Positions 35,299 through 59,749 are shown, counted from the stretch's first letter. The stretch is DNA of 64,000 nt from a virus (IMGVR_UViG_2574180019_000006); one strand, 5' to 3'. Numbers and translations: made by a program. Notes: generated by a model not told the origin, from the sequence alone.

Positions 35299-35341
35299 CT
35301 AATACTAGAAAACAATTTGTTTAAAAAACAAAGGAAAGCAC

Positions 35342-36682
35342 ATGACCGAACTTTGCCATACAGGACGCGGGCTGTCCGAAGAGTTTGATGAAGATTTCCA
35401 GAACAGACTGACGGCATATTTTTGTCGTGATCACGAGTTTCTTACTCGTGCGGGAGATCTGGTTGTGCCTAGCCAGTTTGCCAATGCGGCCAATGCCATA
35501 TTGGTTAATATGGTTTCGGGCTATTACCGTATGTACAAGAGCGCGCCCTCTTCATCTGCAATTCTGGATATGCTTAAGCGTGCGAAACGCGATAAGACTA
35601 TCCGTGAGGAACTATTCGCCGATGTTGTTGCTGCGTTTAAGCGCATTCTTGCAGAAAAATTGTCTGATACCTCGTACATGGTTGACCAGGTATCCACATT
35701 CGCAAAAAGTGTAGCGTTTGATGATGCTCTGATTAAAGCTGCTGAACTGAAAGAGAAGGGCGACTTTCAGGGGGCGATGGCAATCATGGCCAAGGTTCAG
35801 CAGATAGGCTCGAACGAAGCGACCGGAATCTATGACTACTACACCTCCGCAAGTGAGCGATTGAAAGCGCGTGAATATGAGGCTTCAGAGGAGTATGTAC
35901 CAAACAGTATTACAACTGGACTCCCTCTTCTCGATAGGTTGCTGTACCAAAAAGGCTGGGCAAAGCGCGAAATGGTGCTCTTCATGGGGTTCGCTAAATC
36001 CGGTAAATCGACCGCAATGGGTGAGTTTTCCATAAACGCAACGCTTGCTGGCTACAATGTTCTGTATCTCTCGCTGGAGGTTCACACCACCATTTTATCC
36101 GACCGTTTTGATGCAAGATTGTCGGAGACAGAAATGTCCAAGCTGGTGGAACGGCGCGATGAGGTTCATCGTAAGTTGGCAGAGTTGGGAGCCACGAAGG
36201 GGATTGGTAGTTTGTGGGTGGTTGAGCGTCCGTCAGGAAGTATGTCACCGGCAGATCTGGACCGTATGCTTAACAGCATGAAAGCCAACGGCATGGTACC
36301 TGACATGGTTGTTGTCGACTACGCAGATTTGATGCGTGCCAGTTATGACCTTCGTGATGATCGCGCCAACATTCGTAGTATCTACACCGATTTACGTGCT
36401 CTTTATGACAAGCATAACGTTGCTGGGATCACGGCATCGCAGACAAACCGTGAAGGTGGCGCGTCAGAAGTTGCCACAATGATGCACGCTGCCGACAACA
36501 TCGAAAAAGTACGTATTGCTGACCTGGTAATAACGATCAACAAAACCGAAGAAGAAGAAGCGAAAGGAGAGGCTCGTCTCTACTTTGCCGGTTCACGTAA
36601 CCAGCAGGGAGGGATCAGCATTCGCGTTAAACAAAACCTCGAACAAATGCGCTTCATTGAGCGAATCTTAGACGTTACCTAA
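35342..36682 (+). CDS. DnaB-like replicative helicase
   Basis: Walker A GFAKSGKST and RecA-like core (VVVDYADLM ... ITASQTNREG) in the C-terminal half; 446 aa. Confidence 0.65.
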   Translation: MTELCHTGRGLSEEFDEDFQNRLTAYFCRDHEFLTRAGDLVVPSQFANAANAILVNMVSGYYRMYKSAPSSSAILDMLKRAKRDKTIREELFADVVAAFKRILAEKLSDTSYMVDQVSTFAKSVAFDDALIKAAELKEKGDFQGAMAIMAKVQQIGSNEATGIYDYYTSASERLKAREYEASEEYVPNSITTGLPLLDRLLYQKGWAKREMVLFMGFAKSGKSTAMGEFSINATLAGYNVLYLSLEVHTTILSDRFDARLSETEMSKLVERRDEVHRKLAELGATKGIGSLWVVERPSGSMSPADLDRMLNSMKANGMVPDMVVVDYADLMRASYDLRDDRANIRSIYTDLRALYDKHNVAGITASQTNREGGASEVATMMHAADNIEKVRIADLVITINKTEEEEAKGEARLYFAGSRNQQGGISIRVKQNLEQMRFIERILDVT

Positions 36683-36763
36683 AAAATAAGCGTGGAGAAC
36701 ACCTCCACGCTTGATTCATTGGTGAAACAACTTTTCTTTTGCCAAACCACAAAAGAAAAACAC

Positions 36764-37942
36764 ATGAGCCTTTATGTTATATCAACATTTAGGTTGGTCA
36801 CAATATTGCCTGTTAAAAGTGGAATTATCGTGAGCGAGCTGAAAGAGCTAATTACCGAATTAGATTTTGAACAATGGTTGGATACTGAAGGTATCGTTTA
36901 TCGACGTGGAGGCGTGAGTACTCGCGGTCGTGAAGTGAATATCAAGGAGTGTCCGGTATGTGGCAGCTCCAACTGGAAGGTATATTTCAATCTGACCAGT
37001 GGCGTCGGTAAATGCTTCGCTGGTGATCATCCCGAAGAGATTCAGTTCAATAAGCTGGTCTTCCTCAAGCACTACAGCGGCAAATCACGACGACAGTTCG
37101 AGGAATATGTGCAGAACGCCCTTCTTTCCCAGGGGTGGGCACCAAAGAAAGAAGAGCTAGTGCTTGCAAGCACAGTCGAGTTAGAGGGGCCAGTTGCACT
37201 CCCTCGTCATTACGAGCTTCCTATAGATGGTCGTCTTCCAGACTATCTGGTTGAACGAAACATATCGCCTGAAATGGCAAAGTATTTTGACCTACGATAC
37301 TGCGTCGAAGGCAAGCACGCCTATGTAGATCCGTATACAGATCAGGTTAAAGGACAGATATTCGATATGCGAATACTGATACCGGTTTACGATCTGGATG
37401 GGGTAATGAAGACATTTCAGGGACGAGACATTACCGGTACAGCAGAACGCCGCTACCTCTTTCCTATGCAACTTCCAGCTTCAGGTAAGTTTCTCTACAA
37501 CGGCCATAATGCAGTCGGCAAACAGACTGTAGTTGTCTGTGAGGGGGCGTTCGATGTTATGGGGGTTAAACGAGCTATTTTTGACGAAGAAACATTACGT
37601 GATTACGTGGAACCAATAGGAACGTTCGGGATGCATCTATCTGGTAACACCACTCAGGATGCAGAAGATCAGTTAGGCGCGTTCCTGACGCTCAAGGCGC
37701 GTGGATTACGTAATGTGATCATGATGTGGGATAGTGAAAAGCAAGCTATACGCAACACGATGGCCGCAGCCAGGCGACTGACCAGTATTGGTCTTAATGT
37801 CAAAGTGGCGTGTTTGGGCGAGGAAGGACTCGACCCGGGCGATGCAACGCCAGAGCAAATCATCAAAGCCTATTATCGGGCAAAACCGTATACCAAGCAG
37901 TTGGAGTTACAAAGCAAGGTTTTGGGCATTAAGGCTCTATGA
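36764..37942 (+). CDS. DNA primase (zinc-ribbon plus TOPRIM-like)
   Basis: Zinc-binding motif CPVCGSSNW...CFAGDH followed by TOPRIM-like acidic motifs (VVCEGAFD, MWDSE); ATG 36764 carries the conserved leader AAAGAAAAACACATG, preferred over the upstream GTG at 36692. Confidence 0.6.
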   Translation: MSLYVISTFRLVTILPVKSGIIVSELKELITELDFEQWLDTEGIVYRRGGVSTRGREVNIKECPVCGSSNWKVYFNLTSGVGKCFAGDHPEEIQFNKLVFLKHYSGKSRRQFEEYVQNALLSQGWAPKKEELVLASTVELEGPVALPRHYELPIDGRLPDYLVERNISPEMAKYFDLRYCVEGKHAYVDPYTDQVKGQIFDMRILIPVYDLDGVMKTFQGRDITGTAERRYLFPMQLPASGKFLYNGHNAVGKQTVVVCEGAFDVMGVKRAIFDEETLRDYVEPIGTFGMHLSGNTTQDAEDQLGAFLTLKARGLRNVIMMWDSEKQAIRNTMAAARRLTSIGLNVKVACLGEEGLDPGDATPEQIIKAYYRAKPYTKQLELQSKVLGIKAL

Positions 37943-38020
37943 TAACTATCACCTTTAAAATAAGTAGATGATTACTTATCTTTCTGTGAGAATACTTTCA
38001 TCTGTTAGCTAGGAGTTGGT

Positions 38021-38797
38021 ATGAAAGACGAAATTCAGAAATTAGCCTGCGACATCATTGATAAAACTGGTTTAGAAATCAGCGAGAGCAATCGGCTAGA
38101 CATCATTGAAAAAGCCGTAAAAACAGCAATGGATCATATCGCCACTCGTTTGGTCGAGATCCCGCTACCGGGGCTACCTTATCTGAAGGTTAAGTTACAC
38201 GTATGGGGTGAACCTTCTTGTGCACGACGTTCTGCATTAGTTGTTTTTATTAGCAAAGAAAACCCGCTCAGTCTTAAAGTGCAGGTTGGAGCATGGCTTG
38301 ATGGCAGAGTGATCTACACAAATACCGTTTTTTGTCTTTCAAACGACGAAACTATTGAAGCGGCCATTCAAGAAGCAGTTCTAGCAATGCGCAGCAGCGG
38401 TTTGATGAAGAATAACTACGAAGAGTACTTGCGTTCGATAAGTGGTGAAAAGACATTATCTCTGAAAGCAGATTTCGTTACCCCGAAAAATCTGTTGGAA
38501 GTCTTGCTTAATAAAGGGGCTAATGATGCCGTAAATGTAATCAGAGAGAGTGAGTATGCGTCTCTTTGCGACATGTGCAAAAGCCAGTTGGATCTGGTGC
38601 ATATCGTTATTGATGCTGGGAAGGCATGTGATGGCGTAATGGCGGAGTTTGCTGGGAAGATGGTCAGGATTGCTAATGAATTACCGATGATAGAGCAAGA
38701 GGCTAAATCATACGCCACCAATCATGTCACAGAGCTTCTTGTCCCCTATCGCTTAGAAAGCGATCAGCGCAAGATGATTAGCTGGGGAAGTTGGTAA
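38021..38797 (+). CDS. Hypothetical protein
   Basis: 258-aa ORF with AGGAG RBS. Confidence 0.4.
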   Translation: MKDEIQKLACDIIDKTGLEISESNRLDIIEKAVKTAMDHIATRLVEIPLPGLPYLKVKLHVWGEPSCARRSALVVFISKENPLSLKVQVGAWLDGRVIYTNTVFCLSNDETIEAAIQEAVLAMRSSGLMKNNYEEYLRSISGEKTLSLKADFVTPKNLLEVLLNKGANDAVNVIRESEYASLCDMCKSQLDLVHIVIDAGKACDGVMAEFAGKMVRIANELPMIEQEAKSYATNHVTELLVPYRLESDQRKMISWGSW

Positions 38798-38852
38798 GCT
38801 CTCAGTGTGTCGTTTTTTACGCAAATAATGATAGGTAAGCACAAGATTATTT

Positions 38853-39335
38853 TTGGCGGTAATTGTGAAAGCTGATTTGTCAAAAATCCCCTCTATTTCA
38901 GGAAATAATGGTTATTCACTTCGTTGTGAGGAAGTAAAGATAAACGGTGAGTCGGCATATTGCAGCTACTCCGTTTGCCAGCACACCATTCTTGCCTTCA
39001 AAGAAAACCGTCTTCCTCGAACTTCATTCCAGTCGTGCGCAACCGCTATCAAAGCAGGCAAATGCAAGGCGTTAAAAATGATGGTTGAAGAGATTCGTAA
39101 AGGAGAATCTCTGTATTTCGAAGATATGACCGCGCTCATTAAGGAGGTTGAAGAACGGAATAAACAAGCCAGAACTTTAAAACGAAAACGTGACAGTGTA
39201 ACGATTAATAGCATGGTTAAGAAGAGCACCACATCACAAACAGCGATCACTGACGTGTATGCGGCGTTGCTTGAAGAAACAACAAAAGAAACACATGGGC
39301 AAATCGATCAACATATGGAGGTAAAACAACAATGA
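38853..39335 (+). CDS. Hypothetical protein
   Basis: 160-aa ORF with TTG start in the ORF track; true start uncertain. Confidence 0.3.
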   Translation: MAVIVKADLSKIPSISGNNGYSLRCEEVKINGESAYCSYSVCQHTILAFKENRLPRTSFQSCATAIKAGKCKALKMMVEEIRKGESLYFEDMTALIKEVEERNKQARTLKRKRDSVTINSMVKKSTTSQTAITDVYAALLEETTKETHGQIDQHMEVKQQ

Positions 39336-41465: not shown

Positions 41466-42241
41466 AAACATATTGATAAGTATTTACTTACTTATCTTTT
41501 GTGTATAAGATGACTTTGTTTTCGTTGAGACGCGACTGTTTGAACTTAAATACAAGTGCAAACGAAGAAGTCTATCTGGCAGTAGCCTAATAAGCCAAAC
41601 ACCAGCGAGGTCAGTTTCCAGCCTCGTTACCGAAATGGGACACACTGAGCGAGTGTGATTGCAGAACGCAGGAGGGAACATGAATGTTCCCTCCGATGAA
41701 GTAACAGAATGGGCGGTTGGTATATTTTCAACTCCATATGACTCCCGGATTCTTAGCCACTGACCGCCCATCCTGTTACGTCATTTTGTTCAATTATGTC
41801 GTTTATACTGGGTTAAAAAGCGGCGACGTAGCCCGGCTGGTATGGTTAGCCAGCACACAACGTTGAGGCCATTACATTTTTATCAATTCTAAGGTTCTAT
41901 TCACAGAGATACCGGCGAGCGTTGATATGTAACATGTTGGGCAAACATTCAATCGGAGTAGTGGCCTCAACGTTGTGAAGACAGGATTGTTGTGTAGGTT
42001 TAACCACTGTTGCCATTGGTGCCTGTTTTCACAACAAATGATTCCATACATCACATTGTATAAATTACAAAGTAGGTGCTGTCCTCAGAAACATCATCTA
42101 CTTAAAGATTTAGCCTTCTATTGAGCGAAGTCGAAAACGTCTGGCACTAACGAAAAGTGCAAGTAGCGGTGCGTTTCCTGGCAGAAACTAACACCGCCGC
42201 GATTGGCACTGTTGAGTAATAAATACTGTCAGTGCTGAATT

Positions 42242-42316: not shown

Positions 42317-42318
42317 AT

Positions 42319-44502: not shown

Positions 44503-45606
44503 ATGAAAAATAGCTTTGACAGAGCACGCGCTGCGGAGAACACCTCAAAAGAGGCGATAGAGTATCTCGAAAGAGCATCTCAAATGCAGGCCGTTATGAT
44601 CTCGCAGGTTAGCAATGACATGAGATTCTCGGACGCATTCATGTTATTCACTCGCTTATCTCTGCTGATAACCAGACGTCGGCCAGAGATCGCTGTTCAT
44701 TGTATTTTGATACATGTTTTGCCGCACATTGCCGATGTAAAAGTAAGTGACATTAATAGGTTCATGGTGAACCAACTGGTCAACCCACTAATACTGGATG
44801 GCAAAATTGTTATGGGCCGCCGCGTTTTCTCTCTGATGAAGCAGTTCCTTAGCTGGTGCGCCTTCCAGGGGATGATAGACGTGTCACCGTTAAACGATAT
44901 GTCACTTAACAAAGTTGCCGGTGGCGCAAAGCCCACACCTCGCGAGCGGAAGCTGACCGACGCAGAGGTATGGGTGTTCTGGAATATATGGGACTACTTC
45001 AATGTGTGCGCTGGTACAAAATGGGCGGCCAGGCTGTGTCTTGTATCAGCAAGACGACCTGACGAAGTACTGCGGGCTAAAAAAAGTGAGTTCAATCTTA
45101 AGCGTGGAGTTTGGAATCAAGGCAAGAGAAACAAGTCAGCACGTGAGCATTCGCTGCCTTTAAGCACATTAATGCGCACATGTATTGAAGAGTTGTTCGA
45201 ATACGGTAAAGGCAGCCAGTGGCTCGTGCCTTCGAATAAAAAAATCGGGAAAGACCTTCCTATGTCTAAAGTGGCAATAGCCCAGGCATTACGTCGTATT
45301 CTGGAACGACCAGAACTGATGGAGCTTGAGCCATTTACACCCCGAGACTTGCGCCGTACTGCGCGTAGTTACTTCCCAGCTTTAGGCATAAGCCAGGAGG
45401 TATCACGCAAAATCATGAACCACAGTCTTGAGGGGATAGATCGAGTCTACGACCGGCACGATTATATGGACGAGATGCGAGACGCCTTAGAAAGTTTCTC
45501 GACGTACATCGCATCAATCGTAGAGCAACCGGATTTAGACGAAATTGACCACAAATTCAAGGGAGATCGTCTATCAACAGAGCTTATTCGTGTAAATTTT
45601 TCATAG
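44503..45606 (+). CDS. Tyrosine recombinase/integrase
   Basis: C-terminal catalytic-domain signatures of phage integrases (ARRPDEV, PRDLRRTARS, VYDRHDY); true start codon uncertain. Confidence 0.7.
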   Translation: MKNSFDRARAAENTSKEAIEYLERASQMQAVMISQVSNDMRFSDAFMLFTRLSLLITRRRPEIAVHCILIHVLPHIADVKVSDINRFMVNQLVNPLILDGKIVMGRRVFSLMKQFLSWCAFQGMIDVSPLNDMSLNKVAGGAKPTPRERKLTDAEVWVFWNIWDYFNVCAGTKWAARLCLVSARRPDEVLRAKKSEFNLKRGVWNQGKRNKSAREHSLPLSTLMRTCIEELFEYGKGSQWLVPSNKKIGKDLPMSKVAIAQALRRILERPELMELEPFTPRDLRRTARSYFPALGISQEVSRKIMNHSLEGIDRVYDRHDYMDEMRDALESFSTYIASIVEQPDLDEIDHKFKGDRLSTELIRVNFS

Positions 45607-45987
45607 AGACTTTATGGCCTCAACAACCTTTTGTGATGCGCCTTTCTCTTTACCGAATCGCTCGTTATATGCAGCAAGAACCTGTTTTTCGTCCTCGTTA
45701 AGAGGAGCGGTGCCTTCTTTGTATAAAAATGCTGCGAGTTCAGGTTGGCGTTCTTCCAGCACCATCATCATAAGACGACTTGGCTCAATACCCAGCGCCA
45801 GCGCCAACGGACGAACCTTATCGATAGGCAAAGGAATTTTGCCACTTTTAATTAAAGAAAGGTTGTTGGCATTTTTATAACCAATAAGTCTGGCTATTTG
45901 GGCCTGACTCATAGGTGAGGATTCAATCAGCCCTGCGATAAAAGCAGCATAGCGACTTTCTATAAATTCAATCTTGTTGTCAGACAT
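45601..45987 (-). CDS. XRE-family helix-turn-helix transcriptional regulator (candidate phage repressor)
   Basis: 128 aa; HTH segment SQAQIARLIGYKNANNLSLIKSGK; divergent from downstream genes; an imperfect palindrome GGTAAGTGCTTACC lies in its upstream region. Confidence 0.6.
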   Translation of the reverse strand: MSDNKIEFIESRYAAFIAGLIESSPMSQAQIARLIGYKNANNLSLIKSGKIPLPIDKVRPLALALGIEPSRLMMMVLEERQPELAAFLYKEGTAPLNEDEKQVLAAYNERFGKEKGASQKVVEAIKSL

Positions 45988-46237
45988 TGTTACAACCTTT
46001 GCGCGTTCAATTCTCTCTGGTAAGTGCTTACCGATATTACATCAAAGGTTAGGGTTGTAAAGCTATTATCATTTTTTCGATAGGCACTTAAAAGACCGGT
46101 TAAAGGCCATTGCACGGAGAAAAATTAGCCCAAAACAGGTAAGAAAATTAACTTGCATATGATATGAATGTATTCAGTATTGATATAAATTTTAGTAGTA
46201 TTCCTTACCATAGTATAAGTTAGAATGGATTGATTGA

Positions 46238-46450: not shown

Positions 46451-46548
46451 CCCCTCTTCTCCCTGCGCGAATGGCTTAGTTCCCTGTTCGCGCAGTGCTA
46501 CATTAAACACACTAGTAAATAATTTGTTTTCATAACAAAGGATTAGCC

Positions 46549-49990: not shown

Positions 49991-50194
49991 GTGCGTAAAG
50001 GATGTTTCGGCTCTCTTATCGCTGCTTCTGAAACTGGTAAGGCTTGTCTGGTGTGTCCAGACAAGCCCGATTGTCACCAATCAGCAAAAGAAGTTGCGAT
50101 TTCGATGCATGGGAAGTTCGTAGGCTTCCCCAATGACAAAATCAAAAAAACCAGAAAGGTAAAAACACATGAAGGCACTGATGGTTCGAACTGA
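49991..50194 (+). CDS. Small Cys-rich hypothetical protein
   Basis: 67-aa ORF with C..C...C..C-like spacing; overlaps the start of the downstream polymerase gene. Confidence 0.25.
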   Translation: MRKGCFGSLIAASETGKACLVCPDKPDCHQSAKEVAISMHGKFVGFPNDKIKKTRKVKTHEGTDGSN

Positions 50195-52532
50195 CTTCTC
50201 ACTTGGGGAGTCGGCTCTAAAAGCAGAAAACGCGGTGAAGATTGCCAGAGAAGCTGGCTACACCGCTGTAATTTCAGCAGATAGCATGAATATTGCGAGC
50301 GTTATTCCACTACAACGTGCCGCTGGTGACGACATGGCGGTTATTTGTGGTGTGAAACTAAACATTGTTGATGATCCCACATACGAGCACCGGGCTAAAC
50401 TTGCTAAAGAATCTATGAGATGTATGGAATCATTAGAGCGAGGACGTAACTACTCGTTTACCGCTCTAATTAAAAATGAGAAAGGATATCGCGACATCTG
50501 CGAACTAATGACGGCGGCCAACACACGAGAACAGTTCTACTTTGTACCGCGTCTCTCGCTCGAACAGTTGGTTTCTACATATGCCAAAGGCAACATCATC
50601 CTGCTTACTTCCGACATCGGTAGCGTGTTCCAACGCAACGATTTTGCAAAAATCATAAGCACACTGATTACAGCGGGTGGAAAAGACAACTTCTATAGTG
50701 TGGTTTATCCGCACCCTACCCCATTCTACGACCAGATTAACGTCCGGGCGATGAAAGTCGCCAGCGCATTGAAAATAGAGCCAGTGGCGTTCTATCCCGC
50801 TTATTACGAATCGATCGACGATGCAGACATTAAAGACATTGCGCACATGGTTACGAACAACATCAAAATCGACCAGCCGCATCGTCTGCGTATCCCCCAC
50901 CAGCGAGATAACGCCGTCAATGGTCGCCGCCATCTCCTTGAGGCGCTTAAAGCCTTCTCCGTTCGCATGGATGTGCCGGTAACAGCTGCAATGGCCTCAA
51001 CAACGCAGGATACCATTATCGATGCCTGCACATGGCGCTGGCATGAATTGCCGCCAGCACTGCCAAAGATGGCAGACGACGAGCCTGCAACGCTGATGAA
51101 ACTGGCTGTTGCAGGGCTGCGTAAACGTCTTACCACAAAAGAGTTTGGCTACACACCACCTGCTTCTGAGAACAGGGTTTATGTTGAGCGGCTAAAGTAC
51201 GAAATGGACACGCTGACTCGCCTGGGATTCTGTGGTTACTTCCTGATGGTGCGCGATCTGATGAATCATAGTCGTGAAACTGGCATTCCCGTTGGGCCTG
51301 GTCGTGGTTCCTCTGCCGGTTCTCTGGTGGCGTGGTGCATAGGCATAACCAACGTCGACCCAATCCGTCACGGTCTTCTGTTTGAGCGTTTCATCAACCC
51401 TGAGCGTCTCGACTTGCCGGATGCGGACTTGGACTTCAGCCAGGCACGTCGCCATGAGGTGATCGAGTATCTGAATGAACGCTACGGCGAAGATTACGTT
51501 GCAGGCATTCCGAACTTCACCTACCTGGGCGCAGCCTCTGCACTACGTGATACCGCTCGTATTTATGGTGTGGAGTCCGCAGATATGGCGGTATCAAAAG
51601 AACTGAAGAACGTCGAGGATGATAGCCTTCCATTGGAAGAGCTGCGCGAACAACTGGCAAGTCTCGACAAATACGCAACAAAATATCCTGATGCATTCAA
51701 TGCAGCCTGCAAGTTACAAAGCCTTATGCGTGGCTTTGGTAGACATGCGGCAGGGATGATCGTAGCAGGTGTTCCTCTGACAGAACGTACACCGGTTGAG
51801 CGCCGTGGTGACGCGCGTTGTATCGCATTTGACAAGCGTTACTGCGAGGCTATGGGCCTAATTAAGCTGGACGTGCTTGGCCTGGCAACTCTCGATTTGC
51901 TCGATAGTGCAAAACGCTACATAAAAGAGAACACAGGTGAAGATATCAATCTCGACGCTATCCCACTGGACGATCGCAAGGTTCTGGATGGGTTCGCTGC
52001 AGGGTACACGCAGGGCGTATTCCAGCTGGAGTCCGGCCCCATGCGTAAGTTGCTTAAAGATCTGGGCGGTGGCATCGAGCCAATGAGCTTCAAGACCGTT
52101 GTCGCCACGACCGCACTCTTCCGACCAGGCCCGATTCAATCCGGCATGTTGGACGACTATGTCTCCGTGGCCAAAGGCTTCATGGCTCCACATTCCTTAC
52201 ACCCTATGCTGGACGACATCTCTCGCGACACAAACGGTGTTCTGATTTATCAGGAACAGATCATGGCTGCTACGCGAATCTTGGCGGGGTTCTCAATGGC
52301 GGAAGCAGACTCGGTCAGGAAAGCGATCGGGAAAAAAGATATGGAGAAAATGAAATCCATTGGCGGCGACTTCATTAAGCGAGCGGAGGAAGGCTGTGTG
52401 ACAGTGTCACTGGATGACGGTTCTACGAGAAAAATCCATAAAGCAGCACGCCTACTTTGTGCTGATGGTGAGCGTCGCACTTATGCCGAAGCAATGGCAA
52501 TAAATGCCGACATAACGAGCTTCGATATTTGA
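50169..52532 (+). CDS. DNA polymerase III alpha-like (DnaE family), N-terminal fragment
   Basis: 787 aa; polymerase core motifs (GPGRGSSAGSLVAWCIGIT, LDVLGL, FRPGPIQSG, IYQEQIM); ends with a 45-aa non-homologous tail before the stop. Confidence 0.75.
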   Translation: MKALMVRTDFSLGESALKAENAVKIAREAGYTAVISADSMNIASVIPLQRAAGDDMAVICGVKLNIVDDPTYEHRAKLAKESMRCMESLERGRNYSFTALIKNEKGYRDICELMTAANTREQFYFVPRLSLEQLVSTYAKGNIILLTSDIGSVFQRNDFAKIISTLITAGGKDNFYSVVYPHPTPFYDQINVRAMKVASALKIEPVAFYPAYYESIDDADIKDIAHMVTNNIKIDQPHRLRIPHQRDNAVNGRRHLLEALKAFSVRMDVPVTAAMASTTQDTIIDACTWRWHELPPALPKMADDEPATLMKLAVAGLRKRLTTKEFGYTPPASENRVYVERLKYEMDTLTRLGFCGYFLMVRDLMNHSRETGIPVGPGRGSSAGSLVAWCIGITNVDPIRHGLLFERFINPERLDLPDADLDFSQARRHEVIEYLNERYGEDYVAGIPNFTYLGAASALRDTARIYGVESADMAVSKELKNVEDDSLPLEELREQLASLDKYATKYPDAFNAACKLQSLMRGFGRHAAGMIVAGVPLTERTPVERRGDARCIAFDKRYCEAMGLIKLDVLGLATLDLLDSAKRYIKENTGEDINLDAIPLDDRKVLDGFAAGYTQGVFQLESGPMRKLLKDLGGGIEPMSFKTVVATTALFRPGPIQSGMLDDYVSVAKGFMAPHSLHPMLDDISRDTNGVLIYQEQIMAATRILAGFSMAEADSVRKAIGKKDMEKMKSIGGDFIKRAEEGCVTVSLDDGSTRKIHKAARLLCADGERRTYAEAMAINADITSFDI

Positions 52533-52580
52533 GAATTAATTTATAAGATAAGAAAACAATTTGTTTAGTGAGTCTTAGAA

Positions 52581-53315
52581 ATGCCGAGTACGAAGTACAA
52601 AATCACAGAAGAATGGTTACGTCAGCGTTACATGGTTGACCTGATGAGAAAAGAAGACATTGCCGCCGAAGCTGGTTGCAGCAAGGCAAATATTGACCGC
52701 TTATTAGCCAAATGGGGGATCAGGCGCGGAAACGCGCGGATCTCCGCTACCCCAGCCTGGAATCGTGGCAAAAACAAAAATAATGACGAACGTATGAAGC
52801 GACTCTCCGAAGCCCGGACTGGCACTGGCAACCCTATGTATGGGAAAACCTCGTGGAATGCCGGTCTGCGTGCTGATATCGATGAGCGAGTGGCCACCGT
52901 TTCGAAAAAGCTAACCGGCAGAACAATCCGCGCGGAGACGAAGGAAAAGCTGGCGGCTGCCAAACGCGGAAAGATCGGAGAAGAAGCGAACAACTACAAA
53001 GGTGGCATCATCGTAAAAACCAACGGCTACATGATGCAGCTGGTTGGTAACAATGGAGTTTCGCAATACGAATACGTTCATCGGTTGATAGCGAAAGAAC
53101 GTCTCGGTCGGGAGCTACGTGACGATGAACATGTCCACCATATTAACCGCGATACGGTAGATAACGCCCCTGGGAATCTGGTGGCACTTCCAGAAGACGC
53201 CCACATTCGCCTGCATAGCGAAATGCGTGAAAAGGTATGGAGCTGGGAGCGCCAGCGGGACTGGCTGGCCTCCAATGGGTATGAGTTCGTGAAGATTGAT
53301 GAGGTGACTGAATGA
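52581..53315 (+). CDS. HNH homing endonuclease
   Basis: 244 aa; HNH motif EHVHHINRDTVDNAPGNLVALPEDAHIRLH and NUMOD-like repeats; inserted between the two halves of the polymerase gene. Confidence 0.7.
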   Translation: MPSTKYKITEEWLRQRYMVDLMRKEDIAAEAGCSKANIDRLLAKWGIRRGNARISATPAWNRGKNKNNDERMKRLSEARTGTGNPMYGKTSWNAGLRADIDERVATVSKKLTGRTIRAETKEKLAAAKRGKIGEEANNYKGGIIVKTNGYMMQLVGNNGVSQYEYVHRLIAKERLGRELRDDEHVHHINRDTVDNAPGNLVALPEDAHIRLHSEMREKVWSWERQRDWLASNGYEFVKIDEVTE

Positions 53316-54481
53316 AAATTACCAGTGTAGTTGAAGAGAGCAATGGCCTGACGCACGAACGAGCCGAAGAAATCTGGAATATGTTTGAGAAATCCGGCGC
53401 GTATGCCTTCAACAAATCACACTCTGTTGCTTACTCCTTAATCAGTTATCAATCTATGTGGTTGAAAACTCATTATCCCGCGGAGTTCTTCGCTGCTGCT
53501 CTCACTATTCTTGGCGAAGATAAACACCAGGGGCTGGTTAAAGATGCGCTGACCTATGGTATTCGCGTATTGCCACCAGACGTTAACGTGTCATCTAACC
53601 GAATCGAGATCCGCACGCTTGAAGATGGCAGCCAGGTGCTGTATGCGCCCTTCTCTGCTGTGAAAGGGTGTTCTGAGAATGGCTGCCAAGCCATCATGAG
53701 AGCGCGAGAAAAAGTTGGCGGCAAATTCGAGTCACTGGCGCAATTCGAAGAAGCTGTCGAGAAACGTGCCTGTAATAGTCGAGTGCACGAATCACTGCAA
53801 AAAGTAGGTGCGTTTGCATCCATCGAGCCAGGTAGTCTGCCAGCAACTGATCCAGAGCGTCTCCGCGACCAGGCTGAATTGATGGGAAACCTTGTCATAG
53901 ACGCAGTTAAAGCCTCACGTCCGTTTGAGATGAACCCCAAACGTTCGGCTGAGATTAACGTGCTCATGACACGGATGGCGGCTGAAATGGGATTAGGTGA
54001 TGAACTAATCCGCCCTAGCATTGGCATTAAGCCGAAAATCATGATCATTATGGACAATGCAAACGGCAATGATGCTCGAACCGGTTACTTTATGGAGAAC
54101 GGATACGACGATTTTAAGGCCAAGCTGTTGACGGCTGGGGATTTGCGCATGGGCGATCTCTATGTCACAGGCGTTTGCAAAAAGGTGAAAGACAAAGAAA
54201 AGGACTACACCAAAGACGAGATCGGCCAGTTCACCGACTTTATGCGTGAAGAGATCAATCTGGTGCGCCCGACCTATGTGCTGACGTGTGGTAGCCGGGC
54301 AACGGCATTGTTTAACAACAAAAACAAGCCATCCGATTTGGTCGGCAGGAAGGAGTATCTTCCAGACCTTGACGTTACTGTCTTTTACGGGTTTAACCCC
54401 AACATTCTTTACTTCAGACCTGAAGAGGGAGAACGACTAGAAGCGATATTAGCCGACGTAGCAGAAACTATTAAGTCGTGA
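53312..54481 (+). CDS. DNA polymerase III alpha-like (DnaE family), C-terminal fragment
   Basis: 389 aa; begins near the conserved AYAFNKSHS...YQ..WLK.HYPAEF motif that directly follows the region where the N-terminal fragment stops. Confidence 0.7.
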   Translation: MKITSVVEESNGLTHERAEEIWNMFEKSGAYAFNKSHSVAYSLISYQSMWLKTHYPAEFFAAALTILGEDKHQGLVKDALTYGIRVLPPDVNVSSNRIEIRTLEDGSQVLYAPFSAVKGCSENGCQAIMRAREKVGGKFESLAQFEEAVEKRACNSRVHESLQKVGAFASIEPGSLPATDPERLRDQAELMGNLVIDAVKASRPFEMNPKRSAEINVLMTRMAAEMGLGDELIRPSIGIKPKIMIIMDNANGNDARTGYFMENGYDDFKAKLLTAGDLRMGDLYVTGVCKKVKDKEKDYTKDEIGQFTDFMREEINLVRPTYVLTCGSRATALFNNKNKPSDLVGRKEYLPDLDVTVFYGFNPNILYFRPEEGERLEAILADVAETIKS

Positions 54482-54606
54482 TCCAATAAACATGGCCTCT
54501 ATGGCCATGTTTTCTCTTATCCCCTCATATCCCCTATCCTCGAACTCCTTGCCTTATCATCACAATGATATAATCAATATAAGATGATAAGTAAAAAGGA
54601 AAGCAC

Positions 54607-55038: not shown

Positions 55039-55155
55039 TTTTTGATAGATAATAAGTAAGTACTGATCTATCATTTAACAGCTCGAAAGAGCCACGAATG
55101 AACGAAAGCCCAACGCGCATAGCGCCATCGGCCAAATCACAACAAGGAGAAACAC

Positions 55156-56184: not shown

Positions 56185-56200
56185 TCCCATTACGTGACCA

Positions 56201-56230
56201 GTAAGGCGTCTACGGACGCCTTACTTTTTG
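56201..56230 (+). terminator. Rho-independent terminator
   Basis: GTAAGGCGTC-tacg-GACGCCTTAC followed by TTTTT. Confidence 0.7.
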
Positions 56231-56244
56231 GAAGGAATGTACCG

Positions 56245-57189
56245 GTGAATTATCTCTTCGTAGATGGCAATAGCCTGGGTTATTACCACCAGCAATCTGA
56301 CAAATTGCACAACGGCGAAATGGAAGTACAGGCTGCTTTCGGCTTTGTTAAGAACGTCCGTCGTTATGCCTCCATCCTCCATGCCCGACCTATGATTCTT
56401 TGGGATGGATTTAGTGACAAGCGTCGCGACTTTTACCCGGACTACAAAGCAAATCGCGACGACGATCCTGATATGAAAAAGATGAAGGAAGGCTTTGCTA
56501 TCCAGAAGCCATACATCCTCAAAATGATGACCGCGCTTGGAGTTACCCAACTCATTGCAAAAGATGCAGAAGCGGATGATCTGGCCGGGCTGCTGGTAGC
56601 CAGCATTGCACCGCAGCCAATCGTTGAACACATCTATCTGTTAACAGGCGATAGCGACTGGCTTCAGTTAGTTCGCGAAAACGTAAGCTGGGTAAGCCTG
56701 CGCGAAGACGCCAAAAACAAGCAGGTTAATTTTGAGCAATTTGCGGAACTGACAGGATTCGCTACTCCTCGCGCATTTTTGGAAGCAAAAGCATTACAAG
56801 GCGATAAATCGGACAACATTAGCGGTGTTGGTGGCATTGGTGCTGGCGGTGCGAAAGAGCTGCTGCATGAATGGGGAAGTGTCGCAACGATGGTACGCGG
56901 CATCAACGACGGCTCAATCGTGGTTGACAAAGGACGCCATAAGACCGCCTTCAACAAACTAGCGAAGAATGCCTTCAACGAGAAAACAGGCTGTCGAATG
57001 CTCGAAGCGTTCAAGAGAAACATCACGCTAATGAACCTGATTGAGACGAAGTTTCCGCCTACCGAAATCGAAACAATCAAAGGCAATCGTGACGTGAAAG
57101 CATTCGAGCAACTGTGCTACGAGCTGAATTTCCGTTCGTTCCTTGAAGACCTTGAAGTGTTTGTTCTTCCATTCGAAAGGTATTGCTAA
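56245..57189 (+). CDS. 5'-3' exonuclease / flap endonuclease (FEN family)
   Basis: GTG 56245 after RBS GGAAGGA and downstream of the terminator; motifs LFVDGNSL, TGDSDWLQL and H3TH-like region GDKSDNISGVGGIG. Confidence 0.7.
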   Translation: MNYLFVDGNSLGYYHQQSDKLHNGEMEVQAAFGFVKNVRRYASILHARPMILWDGFSDKRRDFYPDYKANRDDDPDMKKMKEGFAIQKPYILKMMTALGVTQLIAKDAEADDLAGLLVASIAPQPIVEHIYLLTGDSDWLQLVRENVSWVSLREDAKNKQVNFEQFAELTGFATPRAFLEAKALQGDKSDNISGVGGIGAGGAKELLHEWGSVATMVRGINDGSIVVDKGRHKTAFNKLAKNAFNEKTGCRMLEAFKRNITLMNLIETKFPPTEIETIKGNRDVKAFEQLCYELNFRSFLEDLEVFVLPFERYC

Positions 57190-57455
57190 TGCTTAAATCG
57201 ATTATTAATGGCGCTACAACCACCCCTGCCCAACTGGCAAAAGAGATTGTCTTTTATCACGGTGAGTACGCTGTCATCGCACTGCCGTCAATTCTAGGCG
57301 CTGCCGGAATGAAAGCGACAGATCGCGAGTTTGGATTAGTCAGCGAGCAGGTCGTAAAAATCCTCGCTCGTGTATCCAGACTCCTTAACCACGATGCGAT
57401 TGTATTCGACGAATCCGCCGCTTTAAAACGAATCAACGAAACAAAAGGAGCCTGA
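57183..57455 (+). CDS. Hypothetical protein
   Basis: 90-aa ORF overlapping the FEN stop. Confidence 0.35.
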   Translation: MLMLKSIINGATTTPAQLAKEIVFYHGEYAVIALPSILGAAGMKATDREFGLVSEQVVKILARVSRLLNHDAIVFDESAALKRINETKGA

Positions 57456-57457
57456 TC

Positions 57458-58531
57458 ATGGCAAAAGGAAAATCCGCACTGGCACTTGCTCTGAAAAAGA
57501 AAATCGGTAGCAACGACGAAATTCAGAAAGTAACTCATTGGATTGATACAGGCTTTCCACCGTTAAACAAAGCTATTTCTGGTCGTTACGATGGCGGCTT
57601 CCCATGTGGTCGTATCGTCGAAGTATTCGGTCCTCCAAGTGCAGGGAAAACGTTCCTTGCAACAGCAGCGATGATCTCCGCTCAAAAACAAGATGGTCTG
57701 GCGGTATTCCTCGATCATGAAAACAGTTTTGACGTTGGCCTGGCTGTAGCCAATGGCCTGAACGCAGATGAGGATGACGGTCAGTGGGTATACAAGCAGC
57801 CTGATACCTTCGAAGACTCTGTAGAGTTGATCGGCACAATTCTTAAATTGGTACGTGATGAAGAGCTTATTCCTGAATCAGCACCTATCTGTATCGTGGC
57901 TGACTCACTTGCGTCTATGGTTCCGAACTCCAAAGCCGAGAAGTTCGAAAAGATGGCTGAAGGCACTGCCAAAGACAAAGATCAGCTAAACATGAACGAC
58001 AATACGGCACTGGCTCGTGCGACAAGTGCGAACTTCCCTACTCTGGCTTTGTGGGCACGCAAATACAACGCCTGCATCATCTTCTTGAATCAGGTTCGCA
58101 CAAAAATCGGTGTAATGTTTGGCGACCCTACTACGTCGCCAGGTGGAGATTCACCGAAGTTCTACGCTTCTGTACGTATCCGTCTTGGTGCATCGGTGAT
58201 GAAGGATGGTAAAGAGAAGATCGGCCAGGACGTAGGCGCAGAATGCATCAAAAACAAAGTTGCACCACCGTATGGCAAATGCACCTGGAAATTCTACTTC
58301 GATCCTACTCGTGGCCTCGACGTTATCGAATCGCTCGTCGAGTACATGCTGGAAGAAGGATACCTGCCAAAGAACGCCAGCGGGCGAGTTGAAATTGGTG
58401 ACAAGAAATACACCAAATCGCAGATCGTCGAGATGTATCGGGAGAAGCCACTGGCTGAAATCATTGCGGCTTTGCAGGCAATCGACGACCGAAGAGCAAA
58501 AGACAACCCCACCGAGTCAGTAGAAGAGTAA
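57458..58531 (+). CDS. RecA-family recombination ATPase
   Basis: Walker A GPPSAGKTF and RecA-like core (VFLDHENSFD, IVADSLASM); 357 aa; RBS AAAGGAG. Confidence 0.65.
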   Translation: MAKGKSALALALKKKIGSNDEIQKVTHWIDTGFPPLNKAISGRYDGGFPCGRIVEVFGPPSAGKTFLATAAMISAQKQDGLAVFLDHENSFDVGLAVANGLNADEDDGQWVYKQPDTFEDSVELIGTILKLVRDEELIPESAPICIVADSLASMVPNSKAEKFEKMAEGTAKDKDQLNMNDNTALARATSANFPTLALWARKYNACIIFLNQVRTKIGVMFGDPTTSPGGDSPKFYASVRIRLGASVMKDGKEKIGQDVGAECIKNKVAPPYGKCTWKFYFDPTRGLDVIESLVEYMLEEGYLPKNASGRVEIGDKKYTKSQIVEMYREKPLAEIIAALQAIDDRRAKDNPTESVEE

Positions 58532-58535
58532 ACAC

Positions 58536-58561
58536 AAGGCGTCCACAGGACGCCTTTTTTA
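58536..58561 (+). terminator. Rho-independent terminator
   Basis: AAGGCGTCC-aca-GGACGCCTT followed by TTTTTT. Confidence 0.7.
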
Positions 58562-58623
58562 TCTCTTGAAAATATATAAGTACTTACTTATTATTTTCGC
58601 ATAACAACCACATAGGAAAACAC

Positions 58624-58824
58624 ATGATCAAAATCTATCTATTGGCAGTAGCCACAGGCGTTTCAGTGGCTCTCATCTACGGTTTACTGGTTCCGTCGCT
58701 GATTTCTACCAAGAGTGATTTAGCCGTCATGTTTGGAGTTATCGTTGGTTTTGGTGCTCCTGTAATCGGTCTTATTGCTGGTCGTAAGTTTATCAACTCA
58801 TTAATCAAAGCAAAGGGGAAATAA
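58624..58824 (+). CDS. Small membrane protein
   Basis: 66 aa with two hydrophobic segments; immediately upstream of the SPFH gene. Confidence 0.4.
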   Translation: MIKIYLLAVATGVSVALIYGLLVPSLISTKSDLAVMFGVIVGFGAPVIGLIAGRKFINSLIKAKGK

Positions 58825-58827
58825 GTA

Positions 58828-59658
58828 ATGAAGAAAGGTTTACTTGCAGTTGCTCTGGCGGCTATTTGCACAATGGGTCTTACTGGCTGTGATCGCGTGG
58901 AGCCTGGATACGTTGGCATCAAAGTAAACAAATTAGGTGAAGACAAAGGGATCGGTGAAGTGGTTGGCGTTGGTCGCCAATGGACAGGTCTTAACACCGA
59001 ACTTTACGTATTCCCGACCTTCAAACAAATGAAGACCTACGACGAACCGTTCACATTCCAGATGAGTGACGGTACTGCTATTGGTCACAAAATTGGCGTT
59101 GCGTATCTGGTTAATCGTGACAAGGTAACGACGGTGTTCCAGACCTATCGCAAAGGCGTAGACGATATCACCGAATCAGATCTGCGTCAGAAAATTGCCG
59201 ACTCTCTAAACCGTTTGGCCAGCCGTATGACCACTGACTCATTTATCGACGGTGGTAAGGCGCAATTGCTGGACAACGCACTGAAAGATATTCAGAAAGA
59301 GATGTCTCCGGTTGGTATTGAGGTACTGAGCCTGTCATGGGTTGGAAAGCCTGATTACCCAAAAACCGTCATTGAATCTATCAACGCCAAAGTAACGGCT
59401 AACCAGCGTACTCTGCAACGTCAGCAGGAAGTTGAACAACGTAAAGCTGAGGCGAATATGCTACGTGAACAGGCTAATGGTGAAGCTGATGCTATCCGTG
59501 CTCGTGCGCAAGCAGAAGCAGACGCCATTCGTCTGCGCGGTGAAGCTCTGCGTCAAAACCCGAACGTTATGGAACTGGAAGCCATCAATAAATGGAATGG
59601 CCAGTTACCGCAGTACATGACTCAAGGGGCTAACACTCCTTTCATTACAGTGAAATAA
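58828..59658 (+). CDS. SPFH/band-7 domain lipoprotein
   Basis: Signal peptide with lipobox LTGC; central SPFH-like region and C-terminal charged coiled coil (QRKAEANMLREQANGEADAIRARAQAEADAIRLRGEA). Confidence 0.6.
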   Translation: MKKGLLAVALAAICTMGLTGCDRVEPGYVGIKVNKLGEDKGIGEVVGVGRQWTGLNTELYVFPTFKQMKTYDEPFTFQMSDGTAIGHKIGVAYLVNRDKVTTVFQTYRKGVDDITESDLRQKIADSLNRLASRMTTDSFIDGGKAQLLDNALKDIQKEMSPVGIEVLSLSWVGKPDYPKTVIESINAKVTANQRTLQRQQEVEQRKAEANMLREQANGEADAIRARAQAEADAIRLRGEALRQNPNVMELEAINKWNGQLPQYMTQGANTPFITVK

Positions 59659-59674
59659 CTCCCCTAAAAAGTTC

Positions 59675-59700
59675 AGGCGTCCAGTTGGACGCCTTTTTTA
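59675..59700 (+). terminator. Rho-independent terminator
   Basis: AGGCGTCC-agtt-GGACGCCT followed by TTTTTT. Confidence 0.7.
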
Positions 59701-59749
59701 TCGCAATTATCTTATTAAGAAAATAATTTGTTTAAAAGGATAAGAAAAC

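What the first reader, a model, noticed from the sequence alone, without database searches (positions are those of the whole stretch)
35308..59737. Second recurrent upstream motif AGAAAAYAATTTGTTTA at three operon starts
The near-palindromic 17-mer occurs at 35308..35327 (before the helicase gene), 52551..52568 (before the HNH endonuclease gene) and 59718..59737 (before the gene at 59750), each 15-30 bp upstream of the start codon and in two cases right after a terminator. It is distinct from the GATAAGTA palindrome and may mark a different promoter class or regulator site.
Basis: seen in the sequence. Interest (0 to 1): 0.45.

Follow-up and report, generated by a model that had tools for sequence, protein, structure and literature searches.

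The report
Dispersed palindromic operator of SSU5-like phage-plasmids
A 17-base near-palindrome sits just upstream of five genes in this window and of about 17 genes in every related SSU5-type phage-plasmid, and it is most likely the DNA docking site of one still-unidentified regulator that controls the element's replication, partition and early genes together.

Summary
AGAAAAYAATTTGTTTA occurs exactly at 35307, 52551 and 59718. Two-mismatch copies lie at 29967 (before parA) and 46514 (before the cobT-like gene). That is 5 sites against 0.06 expected, and all five are intergenic. The window is an SSU5/pHCM2-type phage-plasmid, 98% identical to E. coli phage Cyrano. Cyrano and Salmonella phage SSU5 each carry 18-20 copies, kept at orthologous positions while the flanks diverge. 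The core is a 6+1+6 palindrome, AAACAA-n-TTGTTT, with a free centre base and a conserved AGA flank. Most copies lie between a -10-like hexamer and the Shine-Dalgarno sequence. Some lie inverted over the -35 region, behind a terminator, where they are conserved as an island. An RNA hairpin is negligible (-0.7 kcal/mol) and shows no compensatory changes. Best reading (about 0.55): a dispersed DNA operator for a dimeric regulator. This resembles the P1 C1 or RK2 KorB systems, and the binder is unknown. Main rival (about 0.2): an mRNA operator for the element's conserved FljA-like protein, which I find to be a tandem Hfq fold. Only one of the two claimed terminators is confirmed. It is a new member of a known kind, of moderate interest.

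The parts
29967..29983 (+). Motif copy AGAAAACAAGTTGTTTC, 34 nt before the parA start (30018).
   Evidence: 2 mismatches to the 17-mer; perfect 13-bp palindrome. It is identical in SSU5 together with 40/40 upstream bases. It is kept as AGAAAACATCTTGTTTT before parA in a Klebsiella relative whose flanks differ.
35307..35323 (+). Motif copy AGAAAACAATTTGTTTA, 18 nt before the DnaB-like helicase start (35342) and 8 nt after the stop codon of ORF 34549-35298.
   Evidence: In 33 distinct upstream variants from IMG/VR the motif columns are invariant or nearly so (at least 90%), except the centre base, while the flanks vary.
46514..46530 (+). Degenerate motif copy AGTAAATAATTTGTTTT, 18 nt before the cobT-like gene (46549). 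It is preceded by an extended -10-like TGcTACATT at 46496-46504.
   Evidence: The SSU5 orthologue is a consensus copy, AGAAAACAAATTGTTTA. Pfam CobT/CobT_C. The -10 assignment is my reading of the sequence.
52551..52567 (+). Motif copy AGAAAACAATTTGTTTA, 13 nt before the NUMOD3-HNH endonuclease gene (52581-53315). It lies inside the insertion that splits dnaE.
   Evidence: It is conserved in the Cronobacter copy of the insertion, with substitutions on both sides. No promoter or terminator was found by the scan.
59718..59734 (+). Motif copy AGAAAATAATTTGTTTA, 15 nt before the DUF7238 gene (59750-60175).
   Evidence: Cyrano has AGAAAACAATTTGTTTA at the same place, and SSU5 has AGAAAACAAATTGGTTA.
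59675..59694 (+). Intrinsic terminator hairpin AGGCGTCCAGTTGGACGCCT plus a T run, 23 nt upstream of the motif. Its 3' arm supplies a -35-like TTGGAC (59685-59690).
   Evidence: 8 pairs, 6 G-C. The -35 reading is inference.
30686..31045 (+). Small basic protein encoded directly after parA (ParG-like position). It is a candidate DNA binder of the motif, which would make this an autoregulated par operon. This is speculative.
   Evidence: The segments SRTMSxEDE and FTRSDVIRAAI are invariant across homologues down to 48% identity. It is expressed in the Cyrano lysogen (CYRAN_29, 89 against a background of 9.8). There is no Pfam, PHROG-function or PDB match, and the structure model is of low confidence.

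Best explanation
The 17-mer is a dispersed DNA operator. One dimeric, sequence-specific DNA-binding regulator encoded by the phage-plasmid recognises AGAAAACAA-n-TTGTTTA on double-stranded DNA. The sites overlap either the transcription start or early transcribed region (the common 'O1' position, between the -10 and the Shine-Dalgarno sequence) or the -35 region (the inverted 'O2' position). Bound there, the regulator blocks RNA polymerase. In this way it co-regulates about 17 transcription units: parA, the helicase-primase operon, the cobT-dnaE operon, the HNH gene, nrdB, terS and a cluster of small early genes. The logic is that of the P1 C1 or RK2 KorB global regulons.

Shown here:
- The motif exists.
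- It is over-represented and confined to intergenic DNA.
- It has palindromic anatomy with a free centre base.
- It is deeply conserved at orthologous sites, including a non-transcribed O2 island.

Inferred:
- That a protein binds it on DNA.
- That the effect is repression.
- The promoter assignments.

The identity of the binder is unknown. The candidates are the ParG-like protein at 30686-31045 or another small conserved protein.
For: (1) Over-representation:
- 5 sites against 0.06 expected in the window.
- The core AAACAnnnTGTTT occurs 11 and 14 times in Cyrano and SSU5, against 0.17 expected.
- There are 18-20 sites per genome, 14/18 and 16/20 of them intergenic even with a generous ORF definition (P = 1e-10 and 4e-13).

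(2) Symmetry:
- Positions 4-9 mirror positions 11-16 with equal conservation.
- The centre base is free: A 11, C 8, G 12, T 8.

(3) No RNA structure:
- The hairpin is worth at most -0.7 kcal/mol.
- Among 39 distinct variants there are 0 compensatory changes, and pairing is 90.3% against 90.9% in shuffles.
- Each arm is therefore kept for its sequence, as for a protein dimer on DNA.

(4) Inverted O2 copies:
- They end in TTGTTTTCT exactly 16 nt before a -10 hexamer at three independent loci.
- At one locus the copy lies after a canonical terminator and before the -10.
- There it is invariant except for the centre base (T/C/A/A) across Cyrano, L091, L089 and L092, while the adjacent spacer diverges.

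(5) Operator-like spacing:
- Tandem copies lie 23-25 bp apart upstream of terS and in a second region.
- O2 and O1 lie 51 bp apart.

(6) Variable register:
- The distance to the -10-like hexamer varies from 0-1 to 11 nt.
- This argues against a core promoter element.
- At the helicase and HNH sites it would also place the transcription start inside the motif.

(7) Expression:
- Motif-preceded genes are at background in the Cyrano lysogen RNA-seq: values 5.7-25.5 against a median of 9.8.
- The exception is parA at 50.
- Source: PMC9928086 S1 table.
Against: - No binder is identified.
- The only annotated repressors fail a conservation test. The CYRAN_45 homologue (window 45601-45987) is absent from SSU5 and has its own GGTAAG..CTTACC palindromes. 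SSU5_116 is absent from Cyrano.
- The sigma-70 consensus scan finds no -35/-10 promoter directly upstream of any of the five window sites (its one + strand hit ends 47 nt before the parA site), nor at the relatives' small-gene sites. The promoters are therefore my reading of extended -10 elements.
- Three sites (helicase, HNH, nrdB) are intercistronic, where an RNA-level operator would be at least as natural.
- All O1 copies are on the sense strand next to the ribosome-binding site.
- The motif is asymmetric in its flanks (AGA on one side only), which a simple symmetric dimer does not explain.
- Nearly all phage genes are silent in the lysogen, so the RNA-seq agreement is weak evidence.
Confidence: 0.55

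Rival explanations
1. The motif is an RNA operator. In the 5' untranslated region, AGAAAACAAnUUGUUUA is bound by the element's own FljA-family protein (CYRAN_114 / SSU5_121, encoded outside this window). That protein represses translation and destabilises the mRNAs of about 15 early and replication genes. The model is Salmonella FljA acting on fliC mRNA, or T4 RegA acting on early mRNAs.
For: - A full-length Pfam PF03614 (FljA) protein, E = 1e-80, is encoded by Cyrano and SSU5.
- It is present in all 12 SSU5-like phage records, including 6 Klebsiella records. Klebsiella pneumoniae is non-flagellate (my knowledge), so flagellin is probably not the target there.
- Its model (pLDDT 82) is two tandem helix + 5-strand units, and its top PDB matches are all Hfq (probability 1.0, rmsd 1.2-1.5 A). 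It is thus an RNA-binding fold rather than a recognisable DNA-binding one.
- The literature describes FljA as a translational repressor that binds the fliC mRNA operator.
- O1 copies are all on the sense strand, 10-34 nt before the start codon, including at intercistronic positions without a detectable promoter.
- The Salmonella fliC leader shares CAAGUUGU with the motif at a similar distance from the Shine-Dalgarno sequence.
Against: - The inverted O2 copies lie behind terminators and upstream of the -10, 60-90 nt from the next start codon, yet they are conserved with the same free-centre signature.
- Palindromy is unexplained, because the hairpin is unstable and shows no covariation.
- The E. 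coli fliC leader, also an FljA target, has only CAA..UUG in common.
- The FljA-like protein diverges to 53% identity while the motif is unchanged.
- There is no motif copy at the FljA-like gene itself.
- At the helicase and HNH sites a -10-like hexamer abuts the motif, so a transcript from it would lack the conserved AGAAA.
Confidence: 0.2
2. The motif is a cis-acting A/U-rich translational enhancer or ribosome standby site in the mRNA leader, like the T7 gene 10 leader, with no dedicated regulator.
For: - The T7 gene 10 leader contains AGAAATAATTTTGTTTA, 2 edits from the motif. It lies just upstream of the Shine-Dalgarno sequence of a very highly translated gene and is the only such match in T7.
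- The motif is A/U-rich, on the sense strand and adjacent to the ribosome-binding site.
Against: - 13% of shuffled T7 genomes give such a match.
- The two non-A/U positions of the motif (C7 and G13) are about as strongly conserved as the A/T positions (38/39 and 36/39), whereas an A/U-richness requirement would not keep them.
- Inverted O2 copies, tandem copies before a hairpin upstream of terS, and strict palindromy are unexplained.
- The T7 'epsilon' sequence UUAACUUUA is absent.
Confidence: 0.08
3. The motif is part of a special promoter class. It would be a start-site-proximal element read by RNA polymerase together with a phage-encoded activator or sigma-like factor, in the way the T4 late or middle promoter elements work.
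For: - In the small-gene cluster the motif is embedded in a roughly 45-nt conserved module: TGnGATAAT - wAaCaCCAAcA - motif.
- The -35 hexamers are poor, so an accessory factor is plausible.
Against: - The register relative to the -10-like hexamer is not fixed (0-1, 4-9 or 11 nt).
- The same motif occurs inverted at -35.
- No RNA polymerase, sigma or known activator family was seen in the annotations or scans made. Not every ORF was scanned.
Confidence: 0.07

Closest known systems
Bacteriophage P1 C1 repressor and its dispersed 17-bp operators (my knowledge of the P1 literature)
   Same: - Both are plasmid prophages.
- A single 17-bp motif is scattered over more than ten operon starts across a genome of about 100 kb.
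- One target is the operon of a DnaB-type helicase (ban in P1; 35342 here).
- The sites overlap promoters.
   Different: - P1 operators are asymmetric (ATTGCTCTAATAAATTT, from memory), whereas this motif is a 6+1+6 palindrome of unrelated sequence.
- No C1 homologue was looked for or seen.
- The binder here is unknown, and binding is not demonstrated.
KorB-OB global regulon of IncP plasmid RK2 (and the omega protein of pSM19035) (my knowledge)
   Same: - A 13-bp 6+1+6 palindrome with a non-symmetric centre base.
- About a dozen copies spread over a plasmid.
- Some copies are centred near -39 of promoters.
- One copy lies at the partition operon's own promoter, so a partition protein could double as a global repressor.
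   Different: - The sequences differ (OB is TTTAGCSGCTAAA).
- Most copies here lie at about +5 to +21, not upstream.
- The ParB_N genes of the element (CYRAN_119/120) are at background in the lysogen.
- The ParG-like candidate has no demonstrated fold or DNA binding.
Lambdoid CI/Cro operators
   Same: - 17-bp two-fold symmetric sites with a non-contacted A/T-rich centre.
- Tandem copies 23-25 bp apart.
- Positions over the -35 or the start site.
   Different: - The sites are not clustered in one immunity region but spread over the genome.
- No conserved helix-turn-helix repressor has been assigned.
Salmonella FljA-fliC mRNA operator; T4 RegA regulon
   Same: - The element encodes a bona fide FljA-family protein.
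- The motif lies in leaders just 5' of the Shine-Dalgarno sequence of many replication and early genes, as RegA targets do.
   Different: - The evidence here favours DNA-level recognition (O2 copies, palindromy without RNA structure).
- Similarity to the fliC leaders is limited to an 8-nt core in Salmonella and is less in E. coli.
T7 gene 10 leader (g10-L) translational enhancer
   Same: AGAAATAATTTTGTTTA lies immediately upstream of the ribosome-binding site, 2 edits from the motif.
   Different: - It is a single copy in T7.
- The match is not significant on its own (13% of shuffles).
- The epsilon element is absent here.

Membership tests
Sigma-70 promoter (-35/-10) at the window sites | TTGACA, 16-18 nt, TATAAT, with at least 9 of 12 matches, placed so that the motif is at or just after the start site | tested here: not met
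   No such hit directly upstream of any of the five sites. The only + strand hit is TTGCCA-16-TACCAT at 29892-29919, which ends 47 nt before site 29967. The scan reports one - strand match over the 59718 motif (59734-59706). There are also no coincident hits in the relatives' small-gene cluster. Extended -10 elements (TGn + GATAAT/GAAAAT/TACATT) are visible by eye, but the tool does not score them.
   Met at 59675-59694. Not met before 35307 or 52551.
Dispersed phage-plasmid operator (P1 C1 type) | One motif in many copies, at operon starts across the genome, depleted from coding sequence | tested here: met
   5 copies in the window and 18-20 in Cyrano and SSU5. Intergenic enrichment P = 6e-6 to 4e-13.
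Dispersed phage-plasmid operator (P1 C1 type) | Sequence matching the C1 operator consensus, and a C1-family repressor | tested here: not met
   The motif bears no resemblance to ATTGCTCTAATAAATTT (consensus from memory). A C1 homologue was not searched for.
Dispersed phage-plasmid operator (any) | A protein that binds the site and represses transcription | not testable with these tools
   Needs EMSA or footprinting and reporter assays. Only indirect support is available: motif genes are at background in the lysogen RNA-seq.
KorB OB-type operator | 13-bp palindrome TTTAGCSGCTAAA bound by a ParB-family protein that is expressed in the plasmid state | tested here: not met
   The 6+1+6 form is the same but the sequence differs. 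The ParB_N genes CYRAN_119/120 read 5.0 and 9.5 against a background of 9.8 in the lysogen.
Structured RNA element / Rfam family | Stable fold, compensatory base changes, or a match to a curated family | tested here: not met
   Hairpin dG is -0.7 kcal/mol or weaker. There are 0 compensatory pairs in 39 variants and pairing does not exceed shuffles. Rfam finds only two tRNAs in the window.
FljA-type mRNA operator | An FljA-family RNA-binding protein encoded by the same element | tested here: met
   PF03614, E = 1e-80. Present in all 12 SSU5-like phage records. Tandem Hfq-like fold. The gene lies outside this window.
FljA-type mRNA operator | All functional copies lie in transcribed leaders on the sense strand and resemble the fliC operator | tested here: inconclusive
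   O1 copies fit. O2 copies (inverted, after a terminator, before the -10) do not. The resemblance to fliC leaders is an 8-nt core in Salmonella and weaker in E. coli. The paper that maps the operator was not available.
T7 g10-L translational enhancer | A/U-rich leader with the epsilon sequence UUAACUUUA next to the Shine-Dalgarno sequence | tested here: not met
   The upstream part is similar (2 edits), but 13% of shuffles match and epsilon is absent from the five window leaders.
LexA (SOS) box | CTGT-N8-ACAG | tested here: not met
   The motif lacks CTGT/ACAG. A genuine SOS box was seen elsewhere, in SSU5.

The most novel reading that the evidence does not exclude
The motif is the shared mRNA operator of a phage-plasmid 'RegA-like' regulon. 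The binder would be a tandem-Hfq-fold FljA homologue, a core gene of all SSU5/pHCM2-type elements, including those in Klebsiella hosts. It would bind AGAAAACAAnUUGUUUA in about 15 leaders and post-transcriptionally silence replication and early genes during plasmid carriage. This would give FljA-family proteins a function beyond flagellar phase variation. It would also reveal a phage-encoded Sm-like global translational repressor.
Probability: 0.2. Interest if true: 0.75.

Novelty: new member of a known kind. Interest (0 to 1): 0.45.

Why it matters
SSU5/pHCM2-type phage-plasmids are common in E. coli, Salmonella Typhi, Klebsiella, Enterobacter and Cronobacter. They can carry resistance genes, and this window carries ISEcp1-blaCTX-M. 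Their lysis-lysogeny and copy-number control is essentially uncharacterised. I found no paper containing the core sequence, and the accessible literature names only a 'putative repressor' that SSU5 itself lacks.

A single conserved 17-mer at about 17 gene starts defines the regulon of a master regulator. It also gives a direct handle for finding that regulator, by DNA or RNA pull-down with the 17-mer, and for predicting which genes switch together. If the binder turns out to be the partition protein or the FljA-like Hfq-fold protein, the finding would be considerably more interesting than a routine operator.

Tried and rejected
- **Stable RNA hairpin or riboswitch-like element.** Rejected: dG is -0.7 kcal/mol or weaker, there is no covariation, and there is no Rfam hit.
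- **CYRAN_45-type HTH repressor (window 45601-45987) as binder.** Rejected: it is absent from SSU5, which keeps the motif, and its own divergent region carries different palindromes, GGTAAGTGCTTACC.
- **SSU5_116 'repressor-like' protein as binder.** Rejected: there is no homologue in Cyrano, the window, L091 or L089.
- **CYRAN_98 'LexA-like' protein as binder.** Set aside: it has only an S24 peptidase domain and no DNA-binding domain, so it is UmuD/HumD-like.
- **Co-variation of the motif with a regulator in distant relatives.** This led nowhere. Relatives whose FljA-like protein is only 53-57% identical still carry the identical motif.
- **Reading the papers that map the FljA operator, and a 2026 preprint on a pHCM2-like phage-plasmid.** Neither is held.
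- **Structure of the ParG-like protein.** The model has low confidence (pLDDT 63) and there is no PDB sequence hit, so the ribbon-helix-helix assignment remains a guess.
- **Minus-strand small RNAs starting at O2 copies.** Considered and dropped: there is no consistent promoter or terminator orientation.
- **Host factor sites (IHF, ArcA, PhoP, KdgR, LexA, RNase E).** Compared from memory; none fits.

Full report
**Observation**

The 17-mer is real. AGAAAAYAATTTGTTTA matches exactly at 35307-35323, 52551-52567 and 59718-59734 on the + strand. Allowing two mismatches adds 29967-29983 (AGAAAACAAGTTGTTTC) and 46514-46530 (AGTAAATAATTTGTTTT). That gives 5 matches against 0.06 expected, and no shuffle reaches 5. 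With three mismatches there are 8 matches against 0.76 expected.

All five sites are intergenic, although about 91% of the window lies in ORFs (P = 6e-6). Each lies 13-34 nt upstream of a start codon:
- parA (30018)
- DnaB-like helicase (35342)
- cobT-like gene (46549)
- NUMOD3-HNH endonuclease (52581)
- a DUF7238 gene (59750)

These assignments rest. None is found before 35307 or 52551.

**What the window is**

The window is an SSU5/pHCM2-type phage-plasmid. It is 98% identical to Escherichia phage Cyrano (pLF82) and CMS-2020a, and about 81% identical to Salmonella phage SSU5. I assembled the complete Cyrano and SSU5 genomes from annotated records.

**Anatomy**

The core is a 6+1+6 palindrome, AAACAA-n-TTGTTT. 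In 39 sites from Cyrano and SSU5, positions 4-9 and their mirror positions 11-16 are conserved to the same degree (35-39 of 39). The centre base is free (A 11, C 8, G 12, T 8). A 5' AGA flank is conserved, but its mirror image is not. The element is therefore a two-fold symmetric core with one extended half, AGAAAACAA.

**Distribution and conservation**

Cyrano has 18 merged sites and SSU5 has 20 with up to 2 mismatches. The core pattern AAACAnnnTGTTT occurs 11 and 14 times against 0.17 expected. Outside the window's region, the downstream genes include:
- terS, with two copies 25 bp apart followed by a hairpin
- nrdB
- a TerB-domain gene
- a run of small hypothetical genes at Cyrano 93-98.5 kb

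All four window sites that have an SSU5 orthologue keep the motif there, while the flanks fall to 42-72% identity. In 33 distinct helicase-upstream variants from IMG/VR the motif columns are invariant or nearly so (at least 90%), apart from the centre base. A Klebsiella relative keeps AGAAAACATCTTGTTTT before parA in otherwise diverged sequence. Relatives whose FljA-like protein is only 53-57% identical carry the same motif in the same arrangement.

**Promoter context**

In the small-gene cluster each copy is part of a paralogous module: cTTTTnnGCCTTwT - N8-9 - TGnGATAAT (or GAAAAT, TATTAT) - about 11 nt (wAaCaCCAAcA) - motif - Shine-Dalgarno - ATG. I read this as an extended -10 promoter with the motif at roughly +5 to +21. 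That reading is an inference. The consensus -35/-10 scan does not report these promoters. It also reports no promoter directly upstream of any of the five window sites; its one + strand hit (29892-29919) ends 47 nt before the parA site.

In the window, -10-like hexamers lie 0-1 nt (helicase, HNH), 4 nt (59718) and 9 nt (cobT-like) before the motif. The register is therefore not fixed.

A second class of copy ('O2') is inverted. Its TTGTTTTCT end lies exactly 16 nt before the -10 hexamer at three independent loci. At one promoter O2 and O1 coexist, 51 bp apart.

**DNA or RNA?**

Four results favour recognition on DNA.
1. The palindrome cannot form a meaningful RNA hairpin (dG -0.7 kcal/mol or weaker). 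Among 39 distinct variants there is no compensatory change, and pairing (90.3%) does not exceed shuffles (90.9%). Each arm is thus conserved for its sequence.
2. The O2 copy at Cyrano 97189 lies after a canonical terminator and before the -10. It is identical in four diverged genomes except for the centre base (T/C/A/A), while the neighbouring spacer diverges. The same selection signature therefore appears in DNA that is probably not transcribed.
3. The motif occurs in both orientations, with the extended half always facing the promoter core.
4. The tandem spacing of 23-25 bp and the positions over the -35 or the start site are classical operator geometry.

Against this, all O1 copies are on the sense strand next to the ribosome-binding site. 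Three of them (helicase, HNH, nrdB) are intercistronic.

**Candidate binders**

*Annotated repressors.* The annotated HTH repressor (window 45601-45987; CYRAN_45) is absent from SSU5. Its divergent region has different palindromes. SSU5_116 is absent from Cyrano.

*FljA-like protein.* A conserved gene outside the window (CYRAN_114 / SSU5_121) is a full-length FljA-family protein (PF03614, E = 1e-80). It is present in all 12 SSU5-like phage records, including six Klebsiella records. Klebsiella pneumoniae is non-flagellate (my knowledge), so flagellin is unlikely to be its target there. Its alignment and model show two tandem helix + five-strand units (pLDDT 82). All top PDB matches are Hfq. FljA is described as a translational repressor that binds fliC mRNA.

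This makes an RNA-operator regulon a serious rival. However, the fliC leaders share only CAAGUUGU (Salmonella) or CAA..UUG (E. coli) with the motif. The O2 copies and the palindromy also remain unexplained under this model.

*ParG-like protein.* On the DNA side, the small basic protein encoded after parA (30686-31045) has invariant SRTMSxEDE and FTRSDVIRAAI segments across homologues down to 48% identity. It is expressed in the lysogen, and its operon carries a motif copy. It would fit the model of KorB or omega, a partition protein that doubles as a global repressor. Its fold could not be confirmed.

**Expression**

In the Cyrano lysogen RNA-seq (PMC9928086, S1 table), genes preceded by the motif read 5.7-25.5 against a background median of 9.8. 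The exception is parA at 50, followed by CYRAN_29 at 89 and CYRAN_30 at 55. This agrees with repression in the plasmid state. It is weak evidence, because most phage genes are silent.

**Other comparisons**

The T7 gene 10 leader contains AGAAATAATTTTGTTTA, 2 edits from the motif, and it is the only such site in T7. However, 13% of shuffled T7 genomes give a match. The conserved C and G of the motif also argue against a mere A/U-rich enhancer. No paper holds the core sequence. Rfam finds only two tRNAs in the window.

**Verdict**

It is most likely a dispersed DNA operator of an unidentified dimeric regulator (about 0.55). An mRNA operator for the FljA-like Hfq-fold protein is the main rival (about 0.2). 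It is a new member of a known kind, a global operator of a plasmid prophage. It is of moderate interest as it stands and of higher interest if the binder proves to be the partition protein or the FljA homologue.

Noticed in passing
window 50169-54481: The dnaE (DNA polymerase III alpha) gene is split into an N part (50169-52532, 787 aa) and a C part (53312-54481, 389 aa) by a free-standing NUMOD3-HNH homing-endonuclease gene (52581-53315). The parts are colinear with residues 1-781 and 785-1166 of the intact Cyrano protein. The same insertion is found in at least 25 E. coli, Enterobacter and Cronobacter plasmids. The insertion carries its own copy of the motif.
   Followed up: yes
window 31362-34230: There is a resistance insertion between the partition operon and the helicase operon. 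It consists of an IS1380-family (ISEcp1-like) transposase (31362-32624), blaCTX-M (about 32880-33755; NCBIfam score 627, cut-off 570), then WbuC and Tn3 fragments near 34000-34229. This phage-plasmid is therefore an ESBL carrier.
   Followed up: partly
L002:46781-47302 (-), Cyrano CYRAN_114; outside the window: An FljA-family 'flagellin repressor' homologue is a core gene of SSU5-like phage-plasmids, including those of Klebsiella. Its predicted structure is two tandem Hfq-like (Sm) domains. The Hfq-like fold of this family may not have been described, but I did not check the literature for it.
   Followed up: yes
window 46016-46034 and about 41470-41500; Cyrano 105100-105135: A different family of palindromes (GGTAAGTGCTTACC; GATAAGTAAGTAAATACTTATC; AAGTAAGTGACTACTT) lies in the divergent region next to the HTH repressor gene (45601-45987) and at other intergenic places.
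   Followed up: no
L004:38011-38026 (SSU5 88011-88026): A near-consensus LexA box, CTGTTTATATATACAG, lies just upstream of SSU5_103, in a region with four motif copies. It could explain the SOS (ciprofloxacin) induction reported for Cyrano, through a LexA-controlled antirepressor.
   Followed up: no
Cyrano 54-116 (L005), SSU5 53-115 (L003), L091:4060-4160: Upstream of the small terminase gene there are two motif copies 23-25 bp apart, followed by a G+C-rich hairpin (AGAGCGCatggacGCGCTCT + GTGTGTTTT) and then the start codon. The positions of the two copies have shifted between lineages, but the pair is kept. It looks like a regulated leader-terminator of the late operon.
   Followed up: partly
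window 31085-31400: Three copies of TCAGCTTT and an inverted AAAGCT lie downstream of the ParG-like gene. They are a possible partition (centromere) site, which, if real, would argue that the ParG-like protein has a target other than the 17-mer.
   Followed up: no
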